Source: a virus | Taxonomy: Duplodnaviria; Caudoviricetes | DNA: 64,000 nucleotides | Virus record (IMG/VR): IMGVR_UViG_3300037418_002116 | Reading direction: 5' to 3' (one strand) | Shown here: positions 3,655-57,810 of the stretch, in pieces | Numbering within the stretch: position 1 is the stretch's first letter | Layout of the letters: each line of letters starts with the position of its first letter | Made by a program: the position numbers and the translations under genes | Notes under the pieces: generated by a model | Told to the model about the DNA's origin: nothing | What the model saw: only the letters and a program-made list of their open reading frames with translations | The model's database searches: none

Positions 3655-4770
3655 CTAAATGCTTCTTTTTCCTTCATATAAGTGCTTAACCACGCCAAAT
3701 CTCGGAATGCCGTCTGGCGTGTAATTCTGGAACCGGCAGGCGGCATCGCCGCCGATATAGCGGGTCTTTTCAGCCAATCGTTCACGATTTTTATCCATCG
3801 AACCGTCGATGCCGGACTTGAACGTTCGGCCATCGGGGAGCTTCAAAACGACCTTTTTGGCGATTCCATCCCAATTGCCGATACCTGATTCGATATCCAC
3901 CACTTCAAATTCCTCTGTCTGGAAATTTTTGTGCTTGAAAAGGAATTTCGAGCGCTTATGCTCATACTCGCCATCCGGATTGCGGCCCATGATGCCTTCA
4001 TAGCCATCAACGATGTACTCGCCGTGCTTGTCTTCCAATTCTGCCAAAGAGGCGATCTTAGGCGTTGGGACCAATCTGATGTTGTCGCCATCGAAAGTGC
4101 CTTTGGCAGCGAGTTCAAGAATGAGCGCACGGCGTTCAGAGAACTTCAACTTGGGCTGGTCCGGAACAAACACGTCATAGACGTGATATTGAACCTTTTC
4201 ACGAATTTCCGCCTTGTCGGCTTCCGAAAGCTCGTCATATTTCTGTTGCCGGATCATCGATACCAGCTTGTCGAAATCGTCTTTCAAATCGTGGTTGTAA
4301 AGCTCACCATCGAAAATGATGGTATCGGATGACAGTTGCGCATGGATGTGCGCAATCGTAAAGAATGGCTTTCCCTCTCGGGAAAACCCGCCTTCCGGCT
4401 TCAAGATGCAGCGAACGCCGTCTAGCTTGGGCTGAACGTAATAGTCCCGGTCTTTGGTCTGGCCGGGCTTGTAAGTTGCCGCCAGCATGGGTTGAAAAAT
4501 GTTTGACCGCTTAGCCTCTTCGATTTTATCGGAATATTTCCGGGCAAGCTTCTTTTCGTATTGGGATTCGACTTCCGAGATGGCTTGCTGTTCAGGCGTC
4601 GTTTCATTGGCCTTGCCTATGTTCTTGCCTTCGACGGTCGTCCATTCGGACGTGACCAATTGGCCGTCTAGGATGCCAGAGATTGTGCGGTACTGATTTC
4701 CTTCGGATTCCATGTACCAGACACGAGTCTTACCCTTGGAATCGATATTGTAGAGTTGTTTATGTAGCAA
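3655..4770 (-). CDS. lig: ATP-dependent DNA ligase (T4 gp30-like)
   Basis: QPKLDGVRC adenylation motif, FDGELY, YHVYDV, EGIM, C-terminal OB domain (GIPRF); TTG start. Confidence 0.95.
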   Translation of the reverse strand: MLHKQLYNIDSKGKTRVWYMESEGNQYRTISGILDGQLVTSEWTTVEGKNIGKANETTPEQQAISEVESQYEKKLARKYSDKIEEAKRSNIFQPMLAATYKPGQTKDRDYYVQPKLDGVRCILKPEGGFSREGKPFFTIAHIHAQLSSDTIIFDGELYNHDLKDDFDKLVSMIRQQKYDELSEADKAEIREKVQYHVYDVFVPDQPKLKFSERRALILELAAKGTFDGDNIRLVPTPKIASLAELEDKHGEYIVDGYEGIMGRNPDGEYEHKRSKFLFKHKNFQTEEFEVVDIESGIGNWDGIAKKVVLKLPDGRTFKSGIDGSMDKNRERLAEKTRYIGGDAACRFQNYTPDGIPRFGVVKHLYEGKRSI

Positions 4771-6170: not shown

Positions 6171-6247
6171 TGGCTCTAGCCGCAGGGATCGAACCTGCCA
6201 TGTACAAGTTAACAGCTTGTCCCGTCCACCCTGTTCGGCTGGCTAGA
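6171..6247 (-). tRNA. tRNA-Asn(GTT)
   Basis: Acceptor TCTAGCC/GGCTAGA, anticodon arm ACAAG-CTGTTAA-CTTGT, encoded CCA. Confidence 0.93.
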
Positions 6248-6307: not shown

Positions 6308-6336
6308 AATGTATGTTATTTAGACACGAATGTCAA
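6308..6336 (-). promoter_or_regulatory. sigma70-type promoter with embedded late-like CTAAATA
   Basis: TTGACA (6331-6336), 17-nt spacer, TACATT (6308-6313); CTAAATA at 6317-6323. Confidence 0.7.
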
Positions 6337-6571: not shown

Positions 6572-6838
6572 TTACAATTCCCGAACCTGAATCGATTTGC
6601 TAGGCTGGAAATGCACACGACTGAACTTTTTGTTCGGGTCAAAATCGTCATAATATGGCGAAACATGCATGTTCTTTGGAACATATGGACAATAGAACAT
6701 ACCGGCGTCATGCAACTGCTTACCCTTGTAAGGCATAAGCAGAGGATTGGACGGCTCATTCGGCCTTACAAACGCCTTGGCGGCACTCGGAAAGGCTAAA
6801 ATGGACGCCAGACCAGCAAGAAAGTCACGCCGTTTCAT
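6572..6838 (-). CDS. Tat-signal protein carrying a major-capsid (gp23) C-terminal fragment
   Basis: MKRRDFLAG...AAKA signal; YKGKQLHDAGMFYCPYVP matches gp23 YKG...DAG.(F/Y)Y.PYV. Confidence 0.8.
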   Translation of the reverse strand: MKRRDFLAGLASILAFPSAAKAFVRPNEPSNPLLMPYKGKQLHDAGMFYCPYVPKNMHVSPYYDDFDPNKKFSRVHFQPSKSIQVREL

Positions 6839-7244
6839 GTTCGATCACCTTGGTTCGATCCTTAACCAGCTTATAGCTCTTGTCCGGCATTATCACAGAC
6901 ACCTTATCGGCAATGTAAGTTGCCGGATAATATTTGGTTTCCGTGATTCTGACGGCCATATCTCGCATATCGACATACATATGAAGGTTTTTACCTTCGA
7001 GTCGTGATTGTTCCCAATGCCGTTCCAAAACTGACTTCATAGCCCTTGCACGGGCAGTGATATCAGGATTCGGATACGACGCATTGTAAGTTTCCCACAA
7101 CAAATCAGAATAGCGGACGTTGTAGTCCTCTTTCTCGACCGATTTCAGGATTTCCGCAAGAGTTGTATCGGCCATCGCCGGAAATGACAGAGTAGCCGCT
7201 ACAGCCGTGGCAACGGCACCTACAAGGAATTCACGCCGTTTCAT
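6825..7244 (-). CDS. Tat-signal protein of unknown function
   Basis: True start at ATG 7244 (AAAGGA RBS); MKRREFLVG...PAMA signal. Confidence 0.8.
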   Translation of the reverse strand: MKRREFLVGAVATAVAATLSFPAMADTTLAEILKSVEKEDYNVRYSDLLWETYNASYPNPDITARARAMKSVLERHWEQSRLEGKNLHMYVDMRDMAVRITETKYYPATYIADKVSVIMPDKSYKLVKDRTKVIEHETA

Positions 7245-7644
7245 TATAGAATCCTTTCGTCGGATTGTCGGGATCATATCCATAATCAATCATGCGTTGC
7301 CGAACATTTTCGGATGCTTTCGGATGCTTTCGGGAAATCAAATGCATTTCCCGATGATCCTTACCATAACAGATTGAGAGAGCTTTGATTCGCTCTATGT
7401 CCGAATCTGTCATCTTGACCACTCGGGCAAACGATTTGGTTTCTGTAGGGAATTTGGCTTCTTTGAAATCCAATCGCCAGACCAAATAATCGTTTTTATC
7501 CGGAAGAATGCGGGCGGTAGATGTCCCATTGGTCCAGTTCACGAACAAGACCCAATGTTTCTTCTCTTCGGCCTTAGCCAAAGCAGGAAGCATTGCAGTA
7601 GCGGCGGCAATTCCTACACCAGCAAGGAATTCACGCCTCTGCAT
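7231..7644 (-). CDS. Tat-signal protein of unknown function
   Basis: True start at ATG 7644 (TAATG overlap); MQRREFLAG...LAKA signal. Confidence 0.8.
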   Translation of the reverse strand: MQRREFLAGVGIAAATAMLPALAKAEEKKHWVLFVNWTNGTSTARILPDKNDYLVWRLDFKEAKFPTETKSFARVVKMTDSDIERIKALSICYGKDHREMHLISRKHPKASENVRQRMIDYGYDPDNPTKGFYNETA

Positions 7645-8237
7645 TAGGTGTTCACCTTCAATGGAACATACGGATAATTTGCGTTGGCAAATCTCGTCTT
7701 GAATCCAAATGTTGCCGGACCAGCTATGGTCGGACCAGAGATTTTCATTGGCAAAACGGGTATATAGAATGCTTGGTGCATCCATTCCCGTTCATCCTGA
7801 AATTGGGATAACTCGGCGGCAATTTCCGTCGTATAGATGTGCACCAATTCTGTTTCGGCATCCAAACCACAAACAAGCATCAAATCATTTCGAATTTCGC
7901 ATGTGTATTGTGAGCGCAGCGCTCGGGACATGGCGACTATCGAATATTTGTCCCTCCCATAGTCACGCAATTCCGTGACGTTGAACATCGGCTGATGTTT
8001 GAACAAATAAGGATGTTTATCGACCAGATTGGCGTTAACATCCGTCACCATCTTGGAAAATTGCTTGTCGAAGCCTTCCAAATAGTGTGGCAATTGCTTT
8101 TCCAGAAGGTAGCTTTTCCAGTTCTGCAAATCGAACTTCGGCTTCGACGGCATAAGCGCCGGAAGCGCCAGTGCTGGCTTGGCGATGGCAACAGCGGTCG
8201 CCGCTACCGAACCAACAAGAAAATCACGCCTTTTCAT
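7644..8237 (-). CDS. Tat-signal protein with condensed major-capsid (gp23)-derived domain
   Basis: MKRRDFLVG...PALA signal (ATG 8237, GGAG RBS); NWKSYLLEKQLP, HQPM, AMSRALRSQYTCEIRNDLMLVCGLDAETELVHIYTTEIAAEL and FGFKTRF correspond to successive gp23 motifs. Confidence 0.8.
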   Translation of the reverse strand: MKRRDFLVGSVAATAVAIAKPALALPALMPSKPKFDLQNWKSYLLEKQLPHYLEGFDKQFSKMVTDVNANLVDKHPYLFKHQPMFNVTELRDYGRDKYSIVAMSRALRSQYTCEIRNDLMLVCGLDAETELVHIYTTEIAAELSQFQDEREWMHQAFYIPVLPMKISGPTIAGPATFGFKTRFANANYPYVPLKVNT

Positions 8238-8415
8238 TATCATGCTCCGGTCTGTTCCATTCGATAGTCATGGTATCGAGTGTCGTTTGAATGTGCTTGA
8301 TCTTACCGATTCGGAGGCGGCAAACACCATCAACATTGACCCATAATTTTCCGAATTGGTCAAGAGTCACTTCAACCACTTCGGCGTCCAACATATCTAC
8401 CATTTTATCGGTCAC
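8224..8415 (-). CDS. Hypothetical protein
   Basis: 63-aa ORF; GTGA overlap upstream; its stop lies inside the Tat module of the next gene. Confidence 0.7.
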   Translation of the reverse strand: MTDKMVDMLDAEVVEVTLDQFGKLWVNVDGVCRLRIGKIKHIQTTLDTMTIEWNRPEHDNEKA

Positions 8416-9212
8416 AGACGACTCCCGTGTTCATTGAAGGCTGATTCTAATTCGAATACTAATTTTTGCACATCAGCCGCATAAAATCCAGAGGAATTTA
8501 TAGTGTTGATTTCGACAATTTTGATACCGTCTGGCGTTTCGCAAACGTCCATCACATATGCTTCGGCGGGTTGCCATCCACTTTCTAGCAAAGAGGAAAC
8601 GAACCAATGGAAGCGGTAATCCACATCGTTGGAATACATCACTGTATCGCCCATCTTGTATCGAGAGGCAGTGACAATGCGACGTTGAACAATCCAGAAC
8701 CGGTATTCGGACCAGATTTCTTTGACAGGCGAGACTTGGACCAGCGTATCTGGCGATAGACTGATAGCTGACATTCCGGCGCTGGCAATGCATACCTTCC
8801 GTTGCCAATCGTCAAAATATTCAGCTTCGAAAACGCCACCGGAAAAAAATTTGGAATCATCAACCGGGCGGATGAAGGTTGGTTTCGAAATCTCGACTTG
8901 CTGGAATTCCATTACTTCGGAATCAGCGTTCAGCATTAGATCGCCCCAATTCGATTTCTGAATGGTGAAATCCATAGGTCCGACATCGAACACACCCGGT
9001 TTCCAGCCATACAGTTTGGCAGCGTGGCGCATTGAGTAGGAACCGAAACAAATGACGTTATCGTGGCCTATCTTTGGTTCAGGCGATAACGTACCGATGA
9101 ATGGAGTGACCTTATGCTTAGAATGTGGCACTCCAAATGTGCCAAGCGTGGTCAAAAGTGTATCCCAACCACGCTCACTGAAATCTGTATCCTGTAGAAT
9201 CCAATGCATCAA
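8412..9212 (-). CDS. ATP-grasp protein (R2K/DUF4343-like)
   Basis: FIRP...KFF.G, EYRFW, AYVMDVC...KIVEIN.INSSGFY pattern. Confidence 0.8.
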   Translation of the reverse strand: MMHWILQDTDFSERGWDTLLTTLGTFGVPHSKHKVTPFIGTLSPEPKIGHDNVICFGSYSMRHAAKLYGWKPGVFDVGPMDFTIQKSNWGDLMLNADSEVMEFQQVEISKPTFIRPVDDSKFFSGGVFEAEYFDDWQRKVCIASAGMSAISLSPDTLVQVSPVKEIWSEYRFWIVQRRIVTASRYKMGDTVMYSNDVDYRFHWFVSSLLESGWQPAEAYVMDVCETPDGIKIVEINTINSSGFYAADVQKLVFELESAFNEHGSRL

Positions 9213-9333: not shown

Positions 9334-9409
9334 TGGCAGGGGCAGCAAGGATCGAACTCGCAACCTTTGGTTTTGGAGACCAACGCTCTACCAATTGAGC
9401 TATACCCCC
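9334..9409 (-). tRNA. tRNA-Trp(CCA)
   Basis: GGGGGTA/TGCCCCT acceptor, TTGGT-CTCCAAA-ACCAA anticodon arm, encoded CCA. Confidence 0.93.
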
Positions 9410-10090: not shown

Positions 10091-10177
10091 GGGGCTGGCC
10101 TAAAGCCTTGCCTCCACCACCAGTTTTTTAAAGAAGCTGGAAACTTGTGATCAATGTATTCCAGATTCGCATATTTG

Positions 10178-10657
10178 TCAAGGCACCTGAATGTCGGAAT
10201 GTGGTTTTTCTGTCATTCCATCGTCAACTTGTAATGGGAAAGTTTGTGGTGTACCCGGATGGAACACACCTTTAGCGCCGCCTTCAAGCTCCATTCCAAG
10301 CTGCATTTTATTGTTCTTAGCTTCCTGCAAATCATTGGCCGTTTTGTCAGACCAAGGAAGTGAGCAAACCCGTGAACCGAAAATGGGTTCGGAAAAGAAG
10401 ATATCGATCTTTTTTTCAGGATAAGCGGCGAAACCCAAAACCGTAAATTTATCACGTGGTGCATTGATTCCCGGTACGCACTGCATAGAGGCACCAGAAC
10501 CGACAAACAGAACGGCTAGGCTGAGTGCAGAGCCTATAAAGAAGCCGATTACCGACAAGGCCCGTGGTTTGTGTGATCCGGTTCTAGCCCAAATTGCGAT
10601 ATGGGCTATGATACCAAAAATCAGGGATAGAAAAATCCAAGAGGCTGTAAAAATCAT
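10178..10657 (-). CDS. Membrane protein (2 N-terminal TMs + soluble domain), third gene of the Mot-like operon
   Basis: Two hydrophobic segments, two Cys in the soluble part; TAATG coupling. Confidence 0.75.
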   Translation of the reverse strand: MIFTASWIFLSLIFGIIAHIAIWARTGSHKPRALSVIGFFIGSALSLAVLFVGSGASMQCVPGINAPRDKFTVLGFAAYPEKKIDIFFSEPIFGSRVCSLPWSDKTANDLQEAKNNKMQLGMELEGGAKGVFHPGTPQTFPLQVDDGMTEKPHSDIQVP

Positions 10658-11214
10658 TATTCGTTTCCATAGACCAGAGGATGATAGAGTTTCAGGATTG
10701 AGCCCGGAACCACGTTACCCTTGTCGTCCAGTTTGAAGGTCACTGCCGTGATTTCCTCTTTCGGACGGGATAGCGTCACGGGGCCTTCAAAAATTTTGGT
10801 TACGACACCATTCTTACCGTTCAAACGAACTTCCACCTTGACTTCTTTGGGAAATCCAGTCGTGATGTTGAAGGCAAAAACATTGACAACATATTCGCCG
10901 GGCGGTGTGCCTCTCGAAAAGGCATTTTCATAATTTATGCCTACATCGTCGGCGGCGGTTCCTAGATCGTCTCGCAAGAGATTCCAATTTTCGCCGTCTT
11001 TGTGAAGAAAGCCGATTGGCTTATTTTCGTTCGGTCCCATAAGCCAAAGGTCAACGTCATCTTGTCCGTTTGGCCATGTGATTGTGACAATAAGATTGCC
11101 TGCCGGTTTCATATTGTCTTGAATTACCGGAGGATTTTGGTTAGAAATGATGACCAAACTAATCAGCATGATAAGGATAGTCAGCATCAAATCTCTGAAT
11201 ACCCAATTTATCAT
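10657..11214 (-). CDS. MotB/ExbD/TolR-like single-TM protein with YfaP/DUF2135-like periplasmic domain
   Basis: WVFRDLMLTILIMLISLVII: TM with the conserved Asp; TITW...DDVDLW and ENAF...PGEYVVNV resemble YfaP-type domains. Confidence 0.6.
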   Translation of the reverse strand: MINWVFRDLMLTILIMLISLVIISNQNPPVIQDNMKPAGNLIVTITWPNGQDDVDLWLMGPNENKPIGFLHKDGENWNLLRDDLGTAADDVGINYENAFSRGTPPGEYVVNVFAFNITTGFPKEVKVEVRLNGKNGVVTKIFEGPVTLSRPKEEITAVTFKLDDKGNVVPGSILKLYHPLVYGNE

Positions 11215-11789
11215 GCTTGGTTCGTCACATCCTCGATATTATAGTGCAACAACCAAGCTTTGTGCTTTACATCTTCAATGTACAGGCTTGTAGCTGTTTC
11301 GATGATGTGGAAGTTTACCCATAGCCACAATCCAGCCAGCGCCCCAACCAAGGTAGAGCCGAAGGCAGTACCCAGACCGGCCAAAATTTGGTGAGAAAGT
11401 GCCGCTGAATCAGCCGAATCGCCAAATTTCAGCATGACATACATTCCTATCAGATTGCCCACCAGTCCAAGCAGAGCAAGCCATTCCGACATGACGAACA
11501 CGATCTTATTCAAGATCGGCAATTTGAATGCCTTTAGACGGGCATCAGGAAGCGTTGTGGGAATAATATTTCCGAGATTGTGAATGCCGTCGCTGATTTC
11601 TCCAATGCGGCGGTAGCAGATGTACAAACCGCTTGCAAAAACGGCTAACAAAACATAGGTGAAATGGGCCGGATCACGATGGAAAACTTCGGCGGCGTAT
11701 CCGAGAAAATATAGCCCAAGGAAAATTACAAATCCGATTCCATTGGCCAAGAGAAATCGGTACAGCAATAGATTATGTAGTTTATTCAA
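11211..11789 (-). CDS. MotA/TolQ/ExbB proton-channel family protein
   Basis: Several TMs; LALLGLVGNLIGM and ILAGLGTAFGSTLVG match the family signature; TTG start. Confidence 0.75.
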   Translation of the reverse strand: MNKLHNLLLYRFLLANGIGFVIFLGLYFLGYAAEVFHRDPAHFTYVLLAVFASGLYICYRRIGEISDGIHNLGNIIPTTLPDARLKAFKLPILNKIVFVMSEWLALLGLVGNLIGMYVMLKFGDSADSAALSHQILAGLGTAFGSTLVGALAGLWLWVNFHIIETATSLYIEDVKHKAWLLHYNIEDVTNQA

Positions 11790-11897: not shown

Positions 11898-11975
11898 TGG
11901 TTGCGGGGGTCGGATTTGAACCGACGATCTCTACGTTATGAGCGTAGCGAGATGACCAGACTTCTCCACCCCGCA
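11898..11975 (-). tRNA. tRNA-Met(CAT), initiator-like body without the three G-C anticodon-stem pairs
   Basis: TGCGGGG/CCCCGCA acceptor (U1-A72), A11-U24, GTCGG-TTCAAAT-CCGAC T-arm; anticodon stem CTACG/CGTAG. Confidence 0.9.
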
Positions 11976-12170: not shown

Positions 12171-12830
12171 TCAGGGAACACCGATAGATTCCAACCATTG
12201 GTGCCGGGCAGTGTACTCTTTGGCAATGCCGATGGCATTTTCGCCAGACTGCACGGTATATGGATTGCCGGTAAAATAAGCGAGGGCAAAAATGTTGGCG
12301 TCCAATTCCTGTGGCGACATACAATAGGCGAGATTGGATGCAAATTCCATTGGACTACACCGGATAGGACGGCCCTTCCAAAAGGTTTGGAAAGGAGCAG
12401 TATTATGAGTAAGCCAACCACGCTGAACTTGTTGAATGTGGCGAAGCTCATGTAGAATCACGAACTGGATTGTATTGAAATCCAGCGAAACGTCGATATT
12501 CAAAACTTGACGGCCATCTTCCATGAAGCCAGCCGAAGATCGAACTCTGTTGAACCGCAAGACGACATTCCGCATATTCATGCCAAGTTCTTTGATGGTG
12601 GCATACAGGAAATTTTCGATCTTTTCGTCAGCACTGTTTATGACCGTGTGGAAGATCGATGCCAGCTTGGTCGATTTTGCTGTAGGATTGGAATTGGCGG
12701 TGAAAATATCGGCCAATTCCCGAAGGAAATCCGTCAAATTGACGGCATCGGTAAGGGTTATAACGTCATCAAAACCCGAAGTTCTTGGTAGGCTTTCTGC
12801 ACTTAGCTTGCCAGTCTGCATTTGTTCCAT
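12171..12830 (-). CDS. HExxH metallopeptidase-like protein
   Basis: ILHELRHIQQ plus distal PQELDAN. Confidence 0.6.
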   Translation of the reverse strand: MEQMQTGKLSAESLPRTSGFDDVITLTDAVNLTDFLRELADIFTANSNPTAKSTKLASIFHTVINSADEKIENFLYATIKELGMNMRNVVLRFNRVRSSAGFMEDGRQVLNIDVSLDFNTIQFVILHELRHIQQVQRGWLTHNTAPFQTFWKGRPIRCSPMEFASNLAYCMSPQELDANIFALAYFTGNPYTVQSGENAIGIAKEYTARHQWLESIGVP

Positions 12831-13332
12831 CCTTATAACAGAATTTCAGCCGGGCGTTCGGATTCTTGAAAACGAGTCCTTCGTCCAGAGGATCATCGAG
12901 GGAGTCAAAAATTTGCAGAAACTTTTTTGTATAAGTTTTTGCAAACGTTATACCTTTAGATTTAGGAAGTTCATAGAGCATTGTCAAGCGCTCTTTGAGC
13001 TTTGTACCAACCAAATCATTTCCTTTAAAGATCAGGATATCGAAAAGGTACAAGGTATCCTTTACCGATGGACCCTTGTTATGGAGCAATTCACCCACAA
13101 AAACGGATTCCGGAAACTGCTTGAAATACTCCACAATGTGGTTTGGTGCAGTCCAAGCCTTGTGCAATTCGTTGTGGCGATTCCAGAAAGTCGGAACACC
13201 ATCCTTGTCAACGTCAATGACGGTGCATGTTCCATTTTTCTTAAGTTGAGCGATGGAACCGTTCTTTTCATAGAACGGGATTAGGTCACGAGGAATCGCC
13301 TTTTCCGGGCGTGGTGGCCATAGGAAGGGCAT
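12769..13332 (-). CDS. Minimal ATP-dependent ligase/nucleotidyltransferase (adenylation domain only)
   Basis: QLKKNG, FVGELL, LFDIL, DEGLVFK, WQAKCR correspond to ligase motifs I-V; no OB domain. Confidence 0.7.
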   Translation of the reverse strand: MPFLWPPRPEKAIPRDLIPFYEKNGSIAQLKKNGTCTVIDVDKDGVPTFWNRHNELHKAWTAPNHIVEYFKQFPESVFVGELLHNKGPSVKDTLYLFDILIFKGNDLVGTKLKERLTMLYELPKSKGITFAKTYTKKFLQIFDSLDDPLDEGLVFKNPNARLKFCYKDGTNADWQAKCRKPTKNFGF

Positions 13333-51030: not shown

Positions 51031-52119
51031 TTATTCGGCTGAATTGTTTTCCAATGTATCATCTTCTTCGGATGCTGTCAAGTCCATTTCTTGTGAAGAT
51101 GAACCAAGACTAAAGTAAGCTTTAGCAGCTACTTCAAGCTTTTCAAGAATATCCTGTGTGAAATACTTAGCAGGGTCTTCATTGATATGCTTTTCAAAAT
51201 GCTTTGAACCATCCGGCATTTGATATTGTGTGGAAACTTTCTTGATAATACCGGAAGATGCCGCCAATGGCAGCAAACCGTAATAGCGATCCACACCCTT
51301 TTGGAAGTGGAGCTTGATTGCGATCTTGCGGCCTTCACGGGAGAATCGGGACTTCTGCACGTTCACATGGATGATATTGCCATCATGAACGGTCACGTCC
51401 TTACCACCGATCTTGACCTTTTCGGTATCCTTTTCCTTGGTCAAACCAAGGATGGTCGATGCAGCGTATTCCAGACCGCCACCACCAGCCATTTTCTGTG
51501 GTGCACCATAGCTCATAATGTCGGTATATGAGTGAGCGCATACGAACATTGGGATGTTCAGCTTACCAAGCTTCTGTGTCGCCGTGCGGAACAGTGAGCG
51601 AACGCCTTGCTGCTTGGTCATGTCACGCACATCTTTGCCGTTCAGGCCATCCGTGTCTTCCTTGATCGATGGCAACATGCCAAGCGAATCGAGAACCATG
51701 ATCACACGCTGGCGTTTGTCTTCCGGCAGAGTGCCATAGGCATCCAAAAATTTGAGCGCCTTGGTCTTGAATTCTTCGATGGTTGCCGGTTGCTGAATGA
51801 ACACACGGTCGGGATCGATATCACGACGGAGCAAGAAATCTTCGTCAATGGCAAATTCGGTATCGAAAAAGAGAGCCTGTGCAATCGGATCACTCTGCAA
51901 AAGAGCTTTGACGGCTGACATGGCCAAGTAGGTCTTGCCTACACCCGCCTTTGAGTGGACGGCGGTAATTCTGTTGTTTGGAATGCCGCCCCATATGGAT
52001 GTTGAAACAGCGGCGTTTAGGATGTATGAACCGGTATCGAGAAATCCGGTAGTGACGACTGGACCAGAATATTCGGGGTCAGCCTCTTGAATAAGCTTAA
52101 GAAAGGACTTGTCCTTCAA
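51031..52119 (-). CDS. uvsX: UvsX RecA-like recombinase
   Basis: DTGSYILNAAVS..IWGG, GVGKT, FFDTE, LDSLGML, MAGGGG..YAAS; TTG start. Confidence 0.95.
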   Translation of the reverse strand: MKDKSFLKLIQEADPEYSGPVVTTGFLDTGSYILNAAVSTSIWGGIPNNRITAVHSKAGVGKTYLAMSAVKALLQSDPIAQALFFDTEFAIDEDFLLRRDIDPDRVFIQQPATIEEFKTKALKFLDAYGTLPEDKRQRVIMVLDSLGMLPSIKEDTDGLNGKDVRDMTKQQGVRSLFRTATQKLGKLNIPMFVCAHSYTDIMSYGAPQKMAGGGGLEYAASTILGLTKEKDTEKVKIGGKDVTVHDGNIIHVNVQKSRFSREGRKIAIKLHFQKGVDRYYGLLPLAASSGIIKKVSTQYQMPDGSKHFEKHINEDPAKYFTQDILEKLEVAAKAYFSLGSSSQEMDLTASEEDDTLENNSAE

Positions 52120-57435: not shown

Positions 57436-57810
57436 TTATTTCGCTCCCCCTTGGTCGAGGGAATCCATTAAATTTTTCAATTCAGTTTCAGTCAATATAT
57501 CCATAATTTCCACCGCCCTATCATAGCGAATGCCAAGCTTTTGTGCCAAAAGGACGGTATCAGCGTCTCTTTGCGGCTTGACCCACTTACTAAACCGACG
57601 TTTCTTAGACGTGGCATAATAAAGGAATTCATAATGTTGTTTTGCAGAAATTTCCGGGCACATGTTCAACTCGTTAGCGAGGAATATCGTGTCGGGAAAA
57701 AATGAGAAAGCCTTGTTGATAATGTACTCTGAATAATCCTTTTTGTCAATATCTTCGTTGAAGGAATATTCCTTGTCGTTGATGCTCTTGACGAAATCCC
57801 AAGGGTTCAT
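57436..57810 (-). CDS. 62: Clamp loader small subunit (gp62-like)
   Basis: Y..YIINKAFS...DTI..ANELN, QHYEFL...KKRRFSKW.K; TAATG overlap with gene 44. Confidence 0.9.
   Translation of the reverse strand: MNPWDFVKSINDKEYSFNEDIDKKDYSEYIINKAFSFFPDTIFLANELNMCPEISAKQHYEFLYYATSKKRRFSKWVKPQRDADTVLLAQKLGIRYDRAVEIMDILTETELKNLMDSLDQGGAK

What the first reader, a model, noticed from the sequence alone, without database searches (positions are those of the whole stretch)
7644..8237. Miniaturised gp23 (HK97-fold) behind a Tat signal
Seen, compared with T4 gp23 from memory: NWKSYLLEKQLP resembles NKWKPLLEGEGLP (N-terminal prodomain). HQPM resembles GVQPM (Gol region). AMSRALRSQYTCEIRNDLMLVCGLDAETELVHIYTTEIAAEL resembles AKSRQLKAAYSIELAQDLRAVHGMDADAELSGILATEIMLEI. 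AFYIPVLPM...FGFKTRF resembles IYYAPYVAL...MGFKTRY. The motifs are in the correct order, but about 520 aa are compressed into about 175 aa, with the insertion and axial regions apparently deleted. Inference: a deliberately reduced capsid-core domain rather than random debris.
Basis: partly seen in the sequence, partly recalled or inferred. Interest (0 to 1): 0.8.

Follow-up and report, generated by a model that had tools for sequence, protein, structure and literature searches.

The report
Export-tagged mini capsid protein family
A large soil phage related to T4 carries a small, conserved gene that joins a bacterial export tag of the twin-arginine (Tat) type to a cut-down copy of the major head protein; no paper I searched describes such a family, and its job is unknown.

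Summary
The gene is real. It lies on the minus strand at 8237..7644, encodes 197 aa and has its own ribosome-binding site.

- **Leader:** it starts with a canonical Tat-type leader: KRRDFL, a weakly hydrophobic core, a Lys before the cleavage site, and ALA.
- **Homology to gp23:** two blocks are significant. The strand, short helix and spine helix match T4 gp23 255-304. The C-terminal strands match gp23 453-484. Scores: Pfam Gp23 E 1.5e-10; family profile vs T4 gp23 E 2e-21; vs an MCP profile E 1e-27.
- **What is missing:** the stretches of gp23 that hold the axial (A) and insertion (I) domains have no counterpart.
- **Fold:** an AlphaFold model (pLDDT 84, pTM 0.75) matches T4 gp24, encapsulins and other HK97-fold capsid proteins.
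- **Family:** it is not debris. An exhaustive search found about 16 collinear small homologues at 22-42% identity. Twelve have an RR/KR leader. All come from uncultured phage contigs; the seven contexts I read lie among phage-type genes, five of them in the same early region.
- **Array:** the gene heads a variable array of four genes with RR leaders. The fourth carries another gp23 piece fused to the N-terminus of a VrlC-type virion protein.

My best reading is a Tat-exported accessory protein derived from the capsid protein, with an untested role. Earlier notes from this scan report the same design in other phage genomes.

The parts
7644..8237 (-). Mini-gp23 gene (ORF1), 197 aa: RR leader plus a 173-aa mature domain derived from gp23
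   Evidence: ORF; Pfam Gp23 E 1.5e-10; the identical protein was called on other contigs; AF2 pLDDT 83.8
8166..8237 (-). Twin-arginine-type leader (aa 1-24): KRRDFL, a weakly hydrophobic Ala/Val/Thr-rich core, Lys in the c-region, and ALA before the predicted cleavage site
   Evidence: Sequence features; sub-threshold Tat HMM hits; the first 27 nt are 22-24/27 identical among the four leaders
7803..7952 (-). Block A: P-domain strand, short acidic helix and spine helix, homologous to T4 gp23 255-304
7665..7769 (-). Block B: the two long C-terminal P-domain strands (FYIPV...GFKTRF), homologous to T4 gp23 453-484
7231..7644 (-). ORF2: an RR-leader protein of 137 aa with no known family. Its start overlaps the ORF1 stop (TAATG)
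   Evidence: RR-leader proteins with a similar mature N-terminus occupy the equivalent place in L003 and L013 (resemblance read by eye, not scored)
6825..7244 (-). ORF3: an RR-leader protein of 139 aa, family phrog_30635, function unknown
   Evidence: dN/dS 0.18 against L009; model pLDDT 66.6, no informative fold match
6572..6838 (-). ORF4, 88 aa: RR leader, then a gp23 piece (aa 21-55, window 6674-6778), then the N-terminus of a VrlC/DUF4815-type virion protein (aa 56-88, window 6575-6673)
   Evidence: Pfam Gp23 E 5e-8 and phrog_358 E 8e-11; BLASTP against an MCP; tblastn; homologues P0122-P0125 keep the leader and the gp23 piece but differ in the tail
8224..8415 (-). Conserved 63-aa ORF just upstream. 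Its TGA stop lies inside the Arg-Asp codons of the ORF1 leader
   Evidence: 71% identical in L009, dN/dS 0.18
8412..9212 (-). R2K-clade ATP-grasp gene, found upstream of the array in the five related contigs that show that side of a mini-gp23 (adjacent or one small ORF away) and in L009 upstream of its ORF3/ORF4 array
   Evidence: Pfam R2K_3 E 1.3e-19; synteny
10153..10181 (-). Promoter-like TTGACA-N17-TACATT, a candidate start of the transcription unit that holds the array
   Evidence: 4 copies on the minus strand; 0.43 expected
6308..6336 (-). A second copy of the same promoter-like motif, downstream of the array and upstream of tRNA-Asn

Best explanation
ORF1 is an intact, selected, accessory paralogue of the T4-type major capsid protein gp23.

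Shown:
- It has been trimmed to the peripheral (P) domain core: the strand, the short acidic helix, the spine helix and the two long C-terminal strands. An N-terminal helical arm remains.
- The stretches of gp23 that hold the axial (A) domain and the insertion (I) domain have no counterpart.
- It is fused to a twin-arginine leader.
- It belongs to a family confined to uncultured phage contigs; the contexts I read are T4-like.

Inferred:
- It sits between early/middle replication genes, behind a sigma-70-like promoter motif, so it is probably made before the late head genes.
- It folds in the cytoplasm. A gp23-derived fold would suit Tat rather than Sec, because Tat exports folded proteins.
- TatBC recognises it through KRRDFL, it is exported, and the leader is cut after ALA (aa 24).
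- The 173-aa module then acts in the periplasm or at the inner membrane as a stable binding module. It is one of several interchangeable RR-leader proteins in a variable array.
- The array's patchy presence among close relatives fits a role in conflict, such as superinfection exclusion or envelope takeover, and not in virion assembly.
For: - Homology: Pfam Gp23 41.5 bits (cut-off 24.4) and phrog_138. 1,033 phage records match, in every listed row under the annotated capsid or vertex gene. The family profile gives T4 gp23 E 2e-21 in two blocks and E 1e-27 against an MCP profile with one large gap.
- Fold: AF2 from a family-only alignment gives pLDDT 83.8 and pTM 0.75. The VIA-align wide search puts T4 gp24 on top (Z 7.8, rmsd 4.0, 136 aa), and almost all 50 listed rows are HK97-fold capsid proteins or encapsulins. 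The ESM Atlas gives TM 0.55 by query to a Gp23 cluster over residues 35-193.
- Selection: the exhaustive search found about 16 collinear small homologues at 22-42% identity, all with the same two blocks. They group together in a tree (82/90) among gp23-type MCPs. The neighbouring array genes ORF3 and ORF4 have dN/dS of about 0.18-0.19 at saturated dS.
- Leader: 12 of 16 members carry RR/KR-x-[FL][LF], a weakly hydrophobic core and AxA. Three others are N-terminally incomplete or ambiguous. All four array genes have the leader.
- Accessory status: array composition differs among syntenic relatives. L009 and L013 lack a mini-gp23.
- Position: the array lies between the R2K ATP-grasp gene and DNA ligase, in a block with DNA polymerase, UvsX, helicase, primase and RNR. 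No T4 late motif lies nearby.
Against: - Export is only predicted. Both Tat HMMs score below their cut-offs.
- One complete family member, P0016, has no leader, so a cytoplasmic activity is possible.
- Nothing known in the periplasm binds capsid proteins, so the periplasmic role has no precedent.
- The retained motifs include the acidic short helix and the basic strands. In T4 these make inter-capsomer contacts (PMC9546572), which would suit action on capsid proteins in the cytoplasm.
- The phage's own gp23 lies outside the window and could not be compared.
- The grouping of the small proteins in the tree could be helped by long-branch attraction.
Confidence: 0.55

Rival explanations
1. A capsid mimic that acts in the cytoplasm or at the membrane face. 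The P-domain fragment, and the shorter gp23 peptide of ORF4, bind something that normally recognises head proteins. That could be a rival phage's or satellite's assembling capsid, or a host sensor that detects capsid protein. The fragment would block it, titrate it, or drag it to the Tat machinery as a 'hitchhiker'.
For: - The conserved residues are those shared with gp23, including the acidic short helix and the basic strands that make inter-capsomer contacts in T4 (PMC9546572).
- ORF4 keeps a roughly 32-aa gp23 segment at 85% identity while synonymous sites are saturated. That looks like a binding epitope and not a fold.
- A third virion-gene piece (VrlC N-terminus) sits behind the same leader.
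- A leaderless member exists.
- Tat hitchhiking is a known mechanism (abstract of PMC4273604).
- Unchecked earlier notes of this scan report capsid and portal pieces behind RR leaders in other phages. These are a lead only.
Against: - The leader is conserved in most members and has cleavage-site features, which argues that the passenger leaves the cytoplasm.
- A dominant-negative capsid fragment would also threaten the phage's own gp23.
- No partner has been identified.
Confidence: 0.25
2. A minor head or prohead component. On this reading the RR-type N-terminus is a head-targeting or membrane-tethering peptide removed by the prohead protease, as with T4 internal proteins.
For: - gp23 homology.
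- From general knowledge: T4 internal proteins are small and variable, and their N-terminal targeting peptides are cleaved.
Against: - The leader matches the Tat consensus in every part.
- The gene is absent from close relatives.
- It lies in the replication-gene region, with no late promoter motif nearby.
- The A domain, which forms the capsomer core (PMC9546572), is missing.
Confidence: 0.05
3. Non-functional debris: a decaying partial duplicate of gene 23 that happens to lie behind a signal-like sequence.
For: - Partial gene duplicates do occur in T4. The T4 record itself annotates alt.-1 and alt.-2 as an old duplication of the start of alt.
- ORF4's tail looks like a recombination join that includes the start Met of a VrlC-type gene.
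Against: - The ORF is intact, with an SD sequence.
- About 16 diverged collinear homologues keep the same architecture.
- The compact fold is predicted with high confidence.
- The identical protein occurs in several soil and rhizosphere samples.
Confidence: 0.03

Closest known systems
T4 gp23 major capsid protein and its vertex paralogue gp24 (Pfam PF07068; PDB 7VRT, 5VF3, 1YUE)
   Same: - Sequence homology in the P-domain strand, short helix, spine helix and C-terminal strands.
- The model superposes on gp24 (Z 7.8) and gp23* (Z 3.9-4.9, 30-31% identity over 110-115 residues).
- Like gp24, it is a diverged paralogue of gp23 within a T4-like genome.
   Different: - About 173 aa mature, against 456 aa for gp23*.
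- No counterpart of the gp23 stretches that hold the A domain, the I domain and the C-terminal AP linker.
- N-terminal twin-arginine leader in place of the gp21-cleaved propeptide.
- Encoded among early replication genes and not in the head module.
- Absent from close relatives, so not essential.
Encapsulins (cellular HK97-fold shell proteins)
   Same: An HK97-type fold used outside a virion. They are among the best structural matches (Z 5.3-7.0).
   Different: - Encapsulins keep the A domain and assemble into closed cytoplasmic shells that load cargo.
- This protein lacks the A domain, carries an export leader and is encoded by a phage.
Bacterial Tat substrates (twin-arginine signal peptides, PF10518 / TIGR01409)
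   Same: An RR-x-F-L motif, a weakly hydrophobic h-region, a basic residue in the c-region and an AxA site.
   Different: - Both HMM scores are below their cut-offs.
- The passenger is a capsid-derived domain and not a cofactor enzyme.
- Export is untested.
T4 periplasmic and membrane superinfection-exclusion proteins Imm and Sp (named from general knowledge)
   Same: Small, non-essential, early phage proteins that act in the envelope and lie in variable regions.
   Different: - No sequence or fold relation.
- Those proteins do not use Tat leaders.
- Any functional analogy is only an inference.

Membership tests
Pfam PF07068 Gp23 (T4-type major capsid protein) | HMM score above the curated gathering cut-off | tested here: met
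   41.5 bits against 24.4, E 1.5e-10, but only profile positions 139-186 of 376 are matched
Pfam PF07068 Gp23 (T4-type major capsid protein) | Full-length architecture with the axial (A) domain that forms the capsomer core | tested here: not met
   gp23 about 305-452 has no counterpart. One gap of about 135 residues separates the two blocks. Residues 381, 387 and 420 are in the A domain (PMC9546572)
Pfam PF07068 Gp23 (T4-type major capsid protein) | Insertion (I) domain and its long linkers | tested here: not met
   About 11 residues lie between HQPM and block A, against about 137 in gp23 (118-254)
Pfam PF07068 Gp23 (T4-type major capsid protein) | Encoded in the head-gene module (scaffold, protease, gp23, gp24) and essential | tested here: not met
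   It lies between the R2K ATP-grasp gene and DNA ligase. It is absent from the syntenic relatives L009 and L013
Pfam PF07068 Gp23 (T4-type major capsid protein) | Assembles into capsomers and is present in virions | not testable with these tools
   Needs virion proteomics or assembly assays
HK97 fold | Spine helix packed on a P-domain beta-sheet, with an N-terminal arm | tested here: met
   Model elements: strand 105-113, helices 115-124 and 129-151, strands 157-168 and 178-187. The hit lists are dominated by HK97-fold proteins. TM 0.55 to a Gp23 cluster
HK97 fold | A domain (central sheet plus helices) | tested here: not met
   No residues are available for it
Tat (twin-arginine) signal peptide | Consensus motif [ST]-R-R-x-F-L-K near the N-terminus | tested here: met
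   K-R-R-D-F-L-V at aa 2-8 of the 197-aa protein. RR/KR occurs in 12 of 16 family members and in all 5 ORF4-family members
Tat (twin-arginine) signal peptide | Weakly hydrophobic h-region, basic residue in the c-region, AxA cleavage site | tested here: met
   h-region mean Kyte-Doolittle 1.37; AKPALA
Tat (twin-arginine) signal peptide | HMM score above the curated cut-off (PF10518, TIGR01409) | tested here: not met
   17.8 against 22.7 bits, and 13.1 against 16.7 bits
Tat (twin-arginine) signal peptide | Export that depends on TatABC and on the RR pair | not testable with these tools
   Needs fractionation or a reporter assay in tat+ and tat- strains
Encapsulin | Complete HK97 fold in a cellular genome, beside cargo genes, forming closed shells | tested here: not met
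   Phage context. A domain absent. No cellular fold cluster matched

The most novel reading that the evidence does not exclude
The locus is a cassette system. A portable twin-arginine leader module has repeatedly captured pieces of the phage's own virion genes. Its first 27 nt are near-identical among the four genes, and in three of the four junctions its Arg-Asp/Glu codons also supply the stop codon of the gene upstream. The captured pieces here are the gp23 P-domain, a short gp23 strand segment and a VrlC-type N-terminus. The resulting 'self-mimics' would be used for interference. They could be exported, or they could drag binding partners to the Tat machinery, against rival phages, satellites or capsid-sensing host defences. 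That would make them a new class of mimicry-based phage conflict proteins, widespread in uncultured phages.
Probability: 0.2. Interest if true: 0.9.

Novelty: new variant of a known kind. Interest (0 to 1): 0.72.

Why it matters
Capsid proteins of the HK97 fold are known as shell builders in phages, herpesviruses and encapsulins. This is a case where a phage keeps, under selection, a capsid core without its A and I domains and with a bacterial export leader, beside other leader-tagged pieces of virion genes.

If export is confirmed, it would be a clear example of a capsid protein recruited to a non-structural role in the cell envelope. It would also give a minimal, independently folding P-domain module for studying HK97-fold folding.

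If the mimicry reading is right, it would open a new type of phage-phage or phage-defence interference.

It also matters for annotation. Pfam labels these genes 'Gp23', so surveys that count g23 hits in soil metagenomes could mistake them for capsid genes.

Tried and rejected
- Own genome: none is held, and the related JGI record could not be searched. The phage's own gp23 was therefore not compared. The window holds no full MCP. The top full-length MCP hit, P0018, is from another phage.
- Public phage collections: no near-identical DNA in the INPHARED phages. No match in IMG/VR to peptide patterns from the protein. No small homologue appeared among the isolate phage records listed; every listed match lies under an annotated capsid or vertex gene.
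- Foldseek: against PDB it gave only a weak top hit to T4 gp23 (E 0.048). AFDB clusters gave nothing. The VIA-align and ESM Atlas shape searches were needed to see the fold.
- N-terminal resemblances (NWKSYLL..., HQPM): not significant.
- Homotrimer prediction of the mature domain: the tool returned 'no answer'. This counts neither for nor against oligomerisation.
- Reads: contigs from four runs showed no variants, so no population pN/pS was possible. One 151-nt contig from a metatranscriptome covers only 8285-8435, upstream of ORF1. It does not show that ORF1 is transcribed.
- ORF2 and ORF3: no virion-protein similarity was detected. The ORF3 model is of moderate quality and its best fold match is Z 4.0.
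- The PADLOC and NCBIfam scans were uninformative.
- Literature: four full-text searches found no paper on Tat-tagged capsid fragments.
- R2K ATP-grasp as a functional partner: only synteny within one phage clade supports it, and it is absent from L013. I left it as a lead.

Full report
**What is at the coordinates**

The minus strand holds an ORF from 8243 to 7644. The ATG at 8237 is the likely start. It has GGAG 7 nt upstream, and gene callers in other assemblies give the same 197-aa product.

The product begins MKRRDFLVGSVAATAVAIAKPALA. This has a twin-arginine motif, a weakly hydrophobic core rich in Ala, Val and Thr (mean Kyte-Doolittle 1.37), a Lys in the c-region and an ALA cleavage-type site. 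The two short Tat HMMs hit below their cut-offs: PF10518 at 17.8 against 22.7 bits, and TIGR01409 at 13.1 against 16.7 bits. The leader is therefore Tat-type by its features but not by curated score.

**Is the gp23 resemblance real?**

- Pfam Gp23 matches residues 98-145 at 41.5 bits (cut-off 24.4, E 1.5e-10), and phrog_138 'major head protein' matches the same stretch.
- tblastn finds 1,033 phage records. In every listed row the match lies under the annotated capsid or vertex gene.
- Against the real T4 gp23 (L012), residues 98-157 align to gp23 255-312 (E 6e-10) and 160-192 to gp23 453-484 (E 0.021).
- A profile of the family hits T4 gp23 in PDB at E 2e-21 as two stretches, which correspond to gp23 247-306 and 446-480.
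- Against a profile of 28 full-length MCPs, the family gives E 1e-27 in one alignment with a single gap of about 135 residues.

- NWKSYLLEKQLP against gp23 10-24 gives E 0.67.
- An HMM of the MCP N-terminus scores the real family no better than 3,400 shuffled copies.
- The alternative hhalign alignment that pairs HQPM with VQPM has E 0.017 and probability 2.7%.
- Structure offers mild support for collinearity. Alignments to T4 gp23* start at model 76-79 against gp23 105-107, a few residues before VQPM.

**What has been removed**

Between HQPM and block A there are about 11 residues, where gp23 has about 137 (118-254). That gp23 stretch includes the I-domain linker at 132-160. Between blocks A and B there are about 10 residues, where gp23 has about 148 (305-452). 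That stretch includes residues 381, 387 and 420, which PMC9546572 places in the A domain. The AP linker (486-502) and the C-terminus are also absent.

**Fold**

AlphaFold2 was run on a family-only alignment of 17 sequences, with no capsid proteins in it. It gives mean pLDDT 83.8 and pTM 0.75, with most of the mature part above 90. The elements in order are:

- two N-terminal helices (39-54, 60-76);
- a hairpin (90-103);
- a strand (105-113);
- a short helix (115-124);
- a long helix (129-151);
- two long strands (157-168, 178-187).

The searches gave the following.

- Foldseek against PDB was weak, although its top hit was T4 gp23 (E 0.048).
- The aligner that does not depend on Foldseek put T4 gp24 first (Z 7.8, rmsd 4.0, 136 residues). 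Nearly all of its 50 listed rows are encapsulins and HK97-fold capsid proteins.
- The second-look run gave T4 gp23* Z 3.9-4.9 at 30-31% identity.
- The ESM Atlas shape search gave TM 0.55 by query over residues 35-193 to a cluster that is 100% Pfam Gp23.
- No cellular fold cluster matched.

The individual Z values are middling, as the tool warns. What carries the weight is that the hit lists are almost entirely HK97-fold proteins, together with the sequence homology.

**Not debris: a conserved family**

The word-based search found only the window's own protein. The exhaustive phmmer search found about 16 small, collinear homologues of 134-264 aa at 22-42% identity. They are known only from metagenomes and carry no names.

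- All of those checked have the same two gp23 blocks and the same gap.
- Twelve of the 16 carry an RR/KR leader.
- Three are N-terminally incomplete or ambiguous. For example, the P0025 ORF is open to the end of its contig and shows an AHA site.
- One complete member, P0016, lacks a leader.

In a tree of the two shared blocks, the small proteins fall on one side of a branch (82/90, not starred). They sit among gp23-type MCPs and not with gp24, and their branches are long. This fits one origin followed by faster evolution, though long-branch attraction cannot be excluded.

I could not compute dN/dS for ORF1 itself, because no close homologue exists. The neighbouring array genes ORF3 and ORF4 give 0.18-0.19 against L009, with synonymous sites saturated. 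The flanking ATP-grasp and ligase genes give 0.06-0.08.

**Genomic setting**

The window is part of a T4-like jumbo phage, with a contig of up to 261 kb. It encodes gp43-type DNA polymerase, UvsX, gp41-type helicase, primase and RNR. The polymerase is about 39% identical to those of cyanomyoviruses. The stretch occurs in soil and rhizosphere metagenomes. Its DNA has no near match in INPHARED, and peptide patterns from the protein find nothing in IMG/VR.

ORF1 is the first of four tandem, translationally coupled genes that all start with the leader: ORF1 8237-7644, ORF2 7644-7231, ORF3 7244-6825 and ORF4 6838-6572. The first 27 nt of the four leaders are 22-24/27 identical, while the next 45 nt are only 10-19/45 identical. 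At three of the four junctions, the TGA stop of the upstream gene lies inside the leader's CGT-GAx codons.

ORF4 carries a second, different gp23 piece. Its residues 21-72 align to residues 343-394 of a cyanophage-family MCP (42% identity, Pfam Gp23 E 5e-8). This is followed by the first 33 or so residues of a VrlC/DUF4815-type virion protein (phrog_358, E 8e-11). Its homologues P0122-P0125 keep the leader and the gp23 segment, up to 85% identical. Their tails differ, and two retain an FKTRY-like or VTRY-like motif.

Related contigs keep the same neighbourhood from the R2K ATP-grasp gene to DNA ligase, but they shuffle the array:

- L009 has ORF3 and ORF4;
- L013 has an ORF2-like gene and ORF3, and lacks the ATP-grasp gene;
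- L005 has ORF3 and ORF1;
- L003 has ORF1, an ORF2-like gene, a leaderless gene and a second, longer ORF1-like gene;
- L006 has ORF1 and another RR-leader protein.

The array lies between two copies of TTGACA-N17-TACATT. This motif occurs four times in the window, all on the coding strand, against 0.43 expected. There is no T4 late-promoter motif nearby.

**Mechanism**

Shown: a selected, accessory gp23 paralogue reduced to the P-domain core, with a Tat-type leader.

Inferred:
- early expression;
- folding in the cytoplasm;
- Tat export, with cleavage after ALA;
- a periplasmic or membrane-proximal role in a conflict-type function.

The main rival is that the point of the protein is mimicry of head proteins, acting before or instead of export. 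Several observations favour this rival:
- the retained acidic short helix and basic strands are those that PMC9546572 describes as inter-capsomer contacts;
- the gp23 peptide of ORF4 is extremely conserved;
- a third virion-gene piece sits behind the same leader;
- one family member has no leader.

I cannot separate these readings with the tools available.

**Comparison and novelty**

The closest known proteins are T4 gp23 and gp24. The gene passes the Pfam score test but fails the architectural and contextual features of a capsid gene, so I do not file it as a capsid protein. Four full-text searches found no description of Tat-tagged capsid fragments.

Earlier notes from this scan report the same design in other phage genomes, with RR leaders fused to capsid and portal pieces. 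I treat them as unchecked leads. They raised the weight I give to the mimicry rival.

Noticed in passing
window 6572-6838 (-): ORF4 is a three-part chimera: an RR leader, a gp23 segment of about 32 aa that is 85% identical in a relative despite saturated dS, and the N-terminus of a VrlC/DUF4815-type virion protein. The last part begins at what looks like that gene's own start Met (aa 56). Homologues carry different tails.
   Followed up: partly
window 8224-8237, 7231-7244, 6825-6838 (-): At three of the four junctions, the upstream gene ends at a TGA formed by the leader's Arg-Asp/Glu codons (CGT GAx), giving a fixed 14-nt overlap. The first 27 nt of the four leaders are 22-24/27 identical, and the rest of each leader is not conserved. 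This suggests a portable leader module.
   Followed up: partly
window 6308-6336, 10153-10181, 51053-51081, 57721-57749 (-): TTGACA-N17-TACATT occurs four times, always on the coding strand, against 0.43 expected by shuffling. It is a candidate early promoter motif of this phage.
   Followed up: partly
window 8412-9212 (-): An R2K-clade ATP-grasp gene (Pfam R2K_3, E 1.3e-19) lies upstream of the RR-leader array here and in L003, L004, L005, L006, L007 and L009 (in some with one small ORF between), but not in L013. R2K enzymes are predicted peptide ligases acting on proteins (PMC4431377). A link to the array is possible but untested.
   Followed up: partly
window 11211-11789 (-): A weak MotA/TolQ/ExbB hit (E 5e-4, below the cut-off) falls in a three-gene block upstream. 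The same weak hit recurs in the relatives L003, L005, L009 and L013, so the block is conserved.
   Followed up: no
window 12171-13332 (-): A DUF6782 putative metallopeptidase (E 1.3e-7) lies next to a short second ligase-like gene with DNA_ligase_A_M and RNA_ligase hits. These are additional to the full DNA ligase at 3655-4770.
   Followed up: no
window 6171-6247, 9334-9409, 11898-11975 (-): tRNA-Asn, tRNA-Trp and tRNA-Met genes are interspersed with the small early genes. tRNA-Trp lies inside the putative transcription unit of the array.
   Followed up: no
L003:11341-12048 (+): A second, longer (235 aa) RR-leader protein in a related phage keeps the family's N-terminal motif and the YIPV strand. 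Its C-terminal half is diverged and rich in Trp and His. It looks like a paralogue that is evolving away.
   Followed up: no
L006:8519-8878, L003:10630-11055, L013:5450-6004: Other RR-leader proteins in related arrays match PHROG families (phrog_11563, phrog_23456) only over the leader. Several phage protein families of unknown function therefore seem to share this leader.
   Followed up: partly
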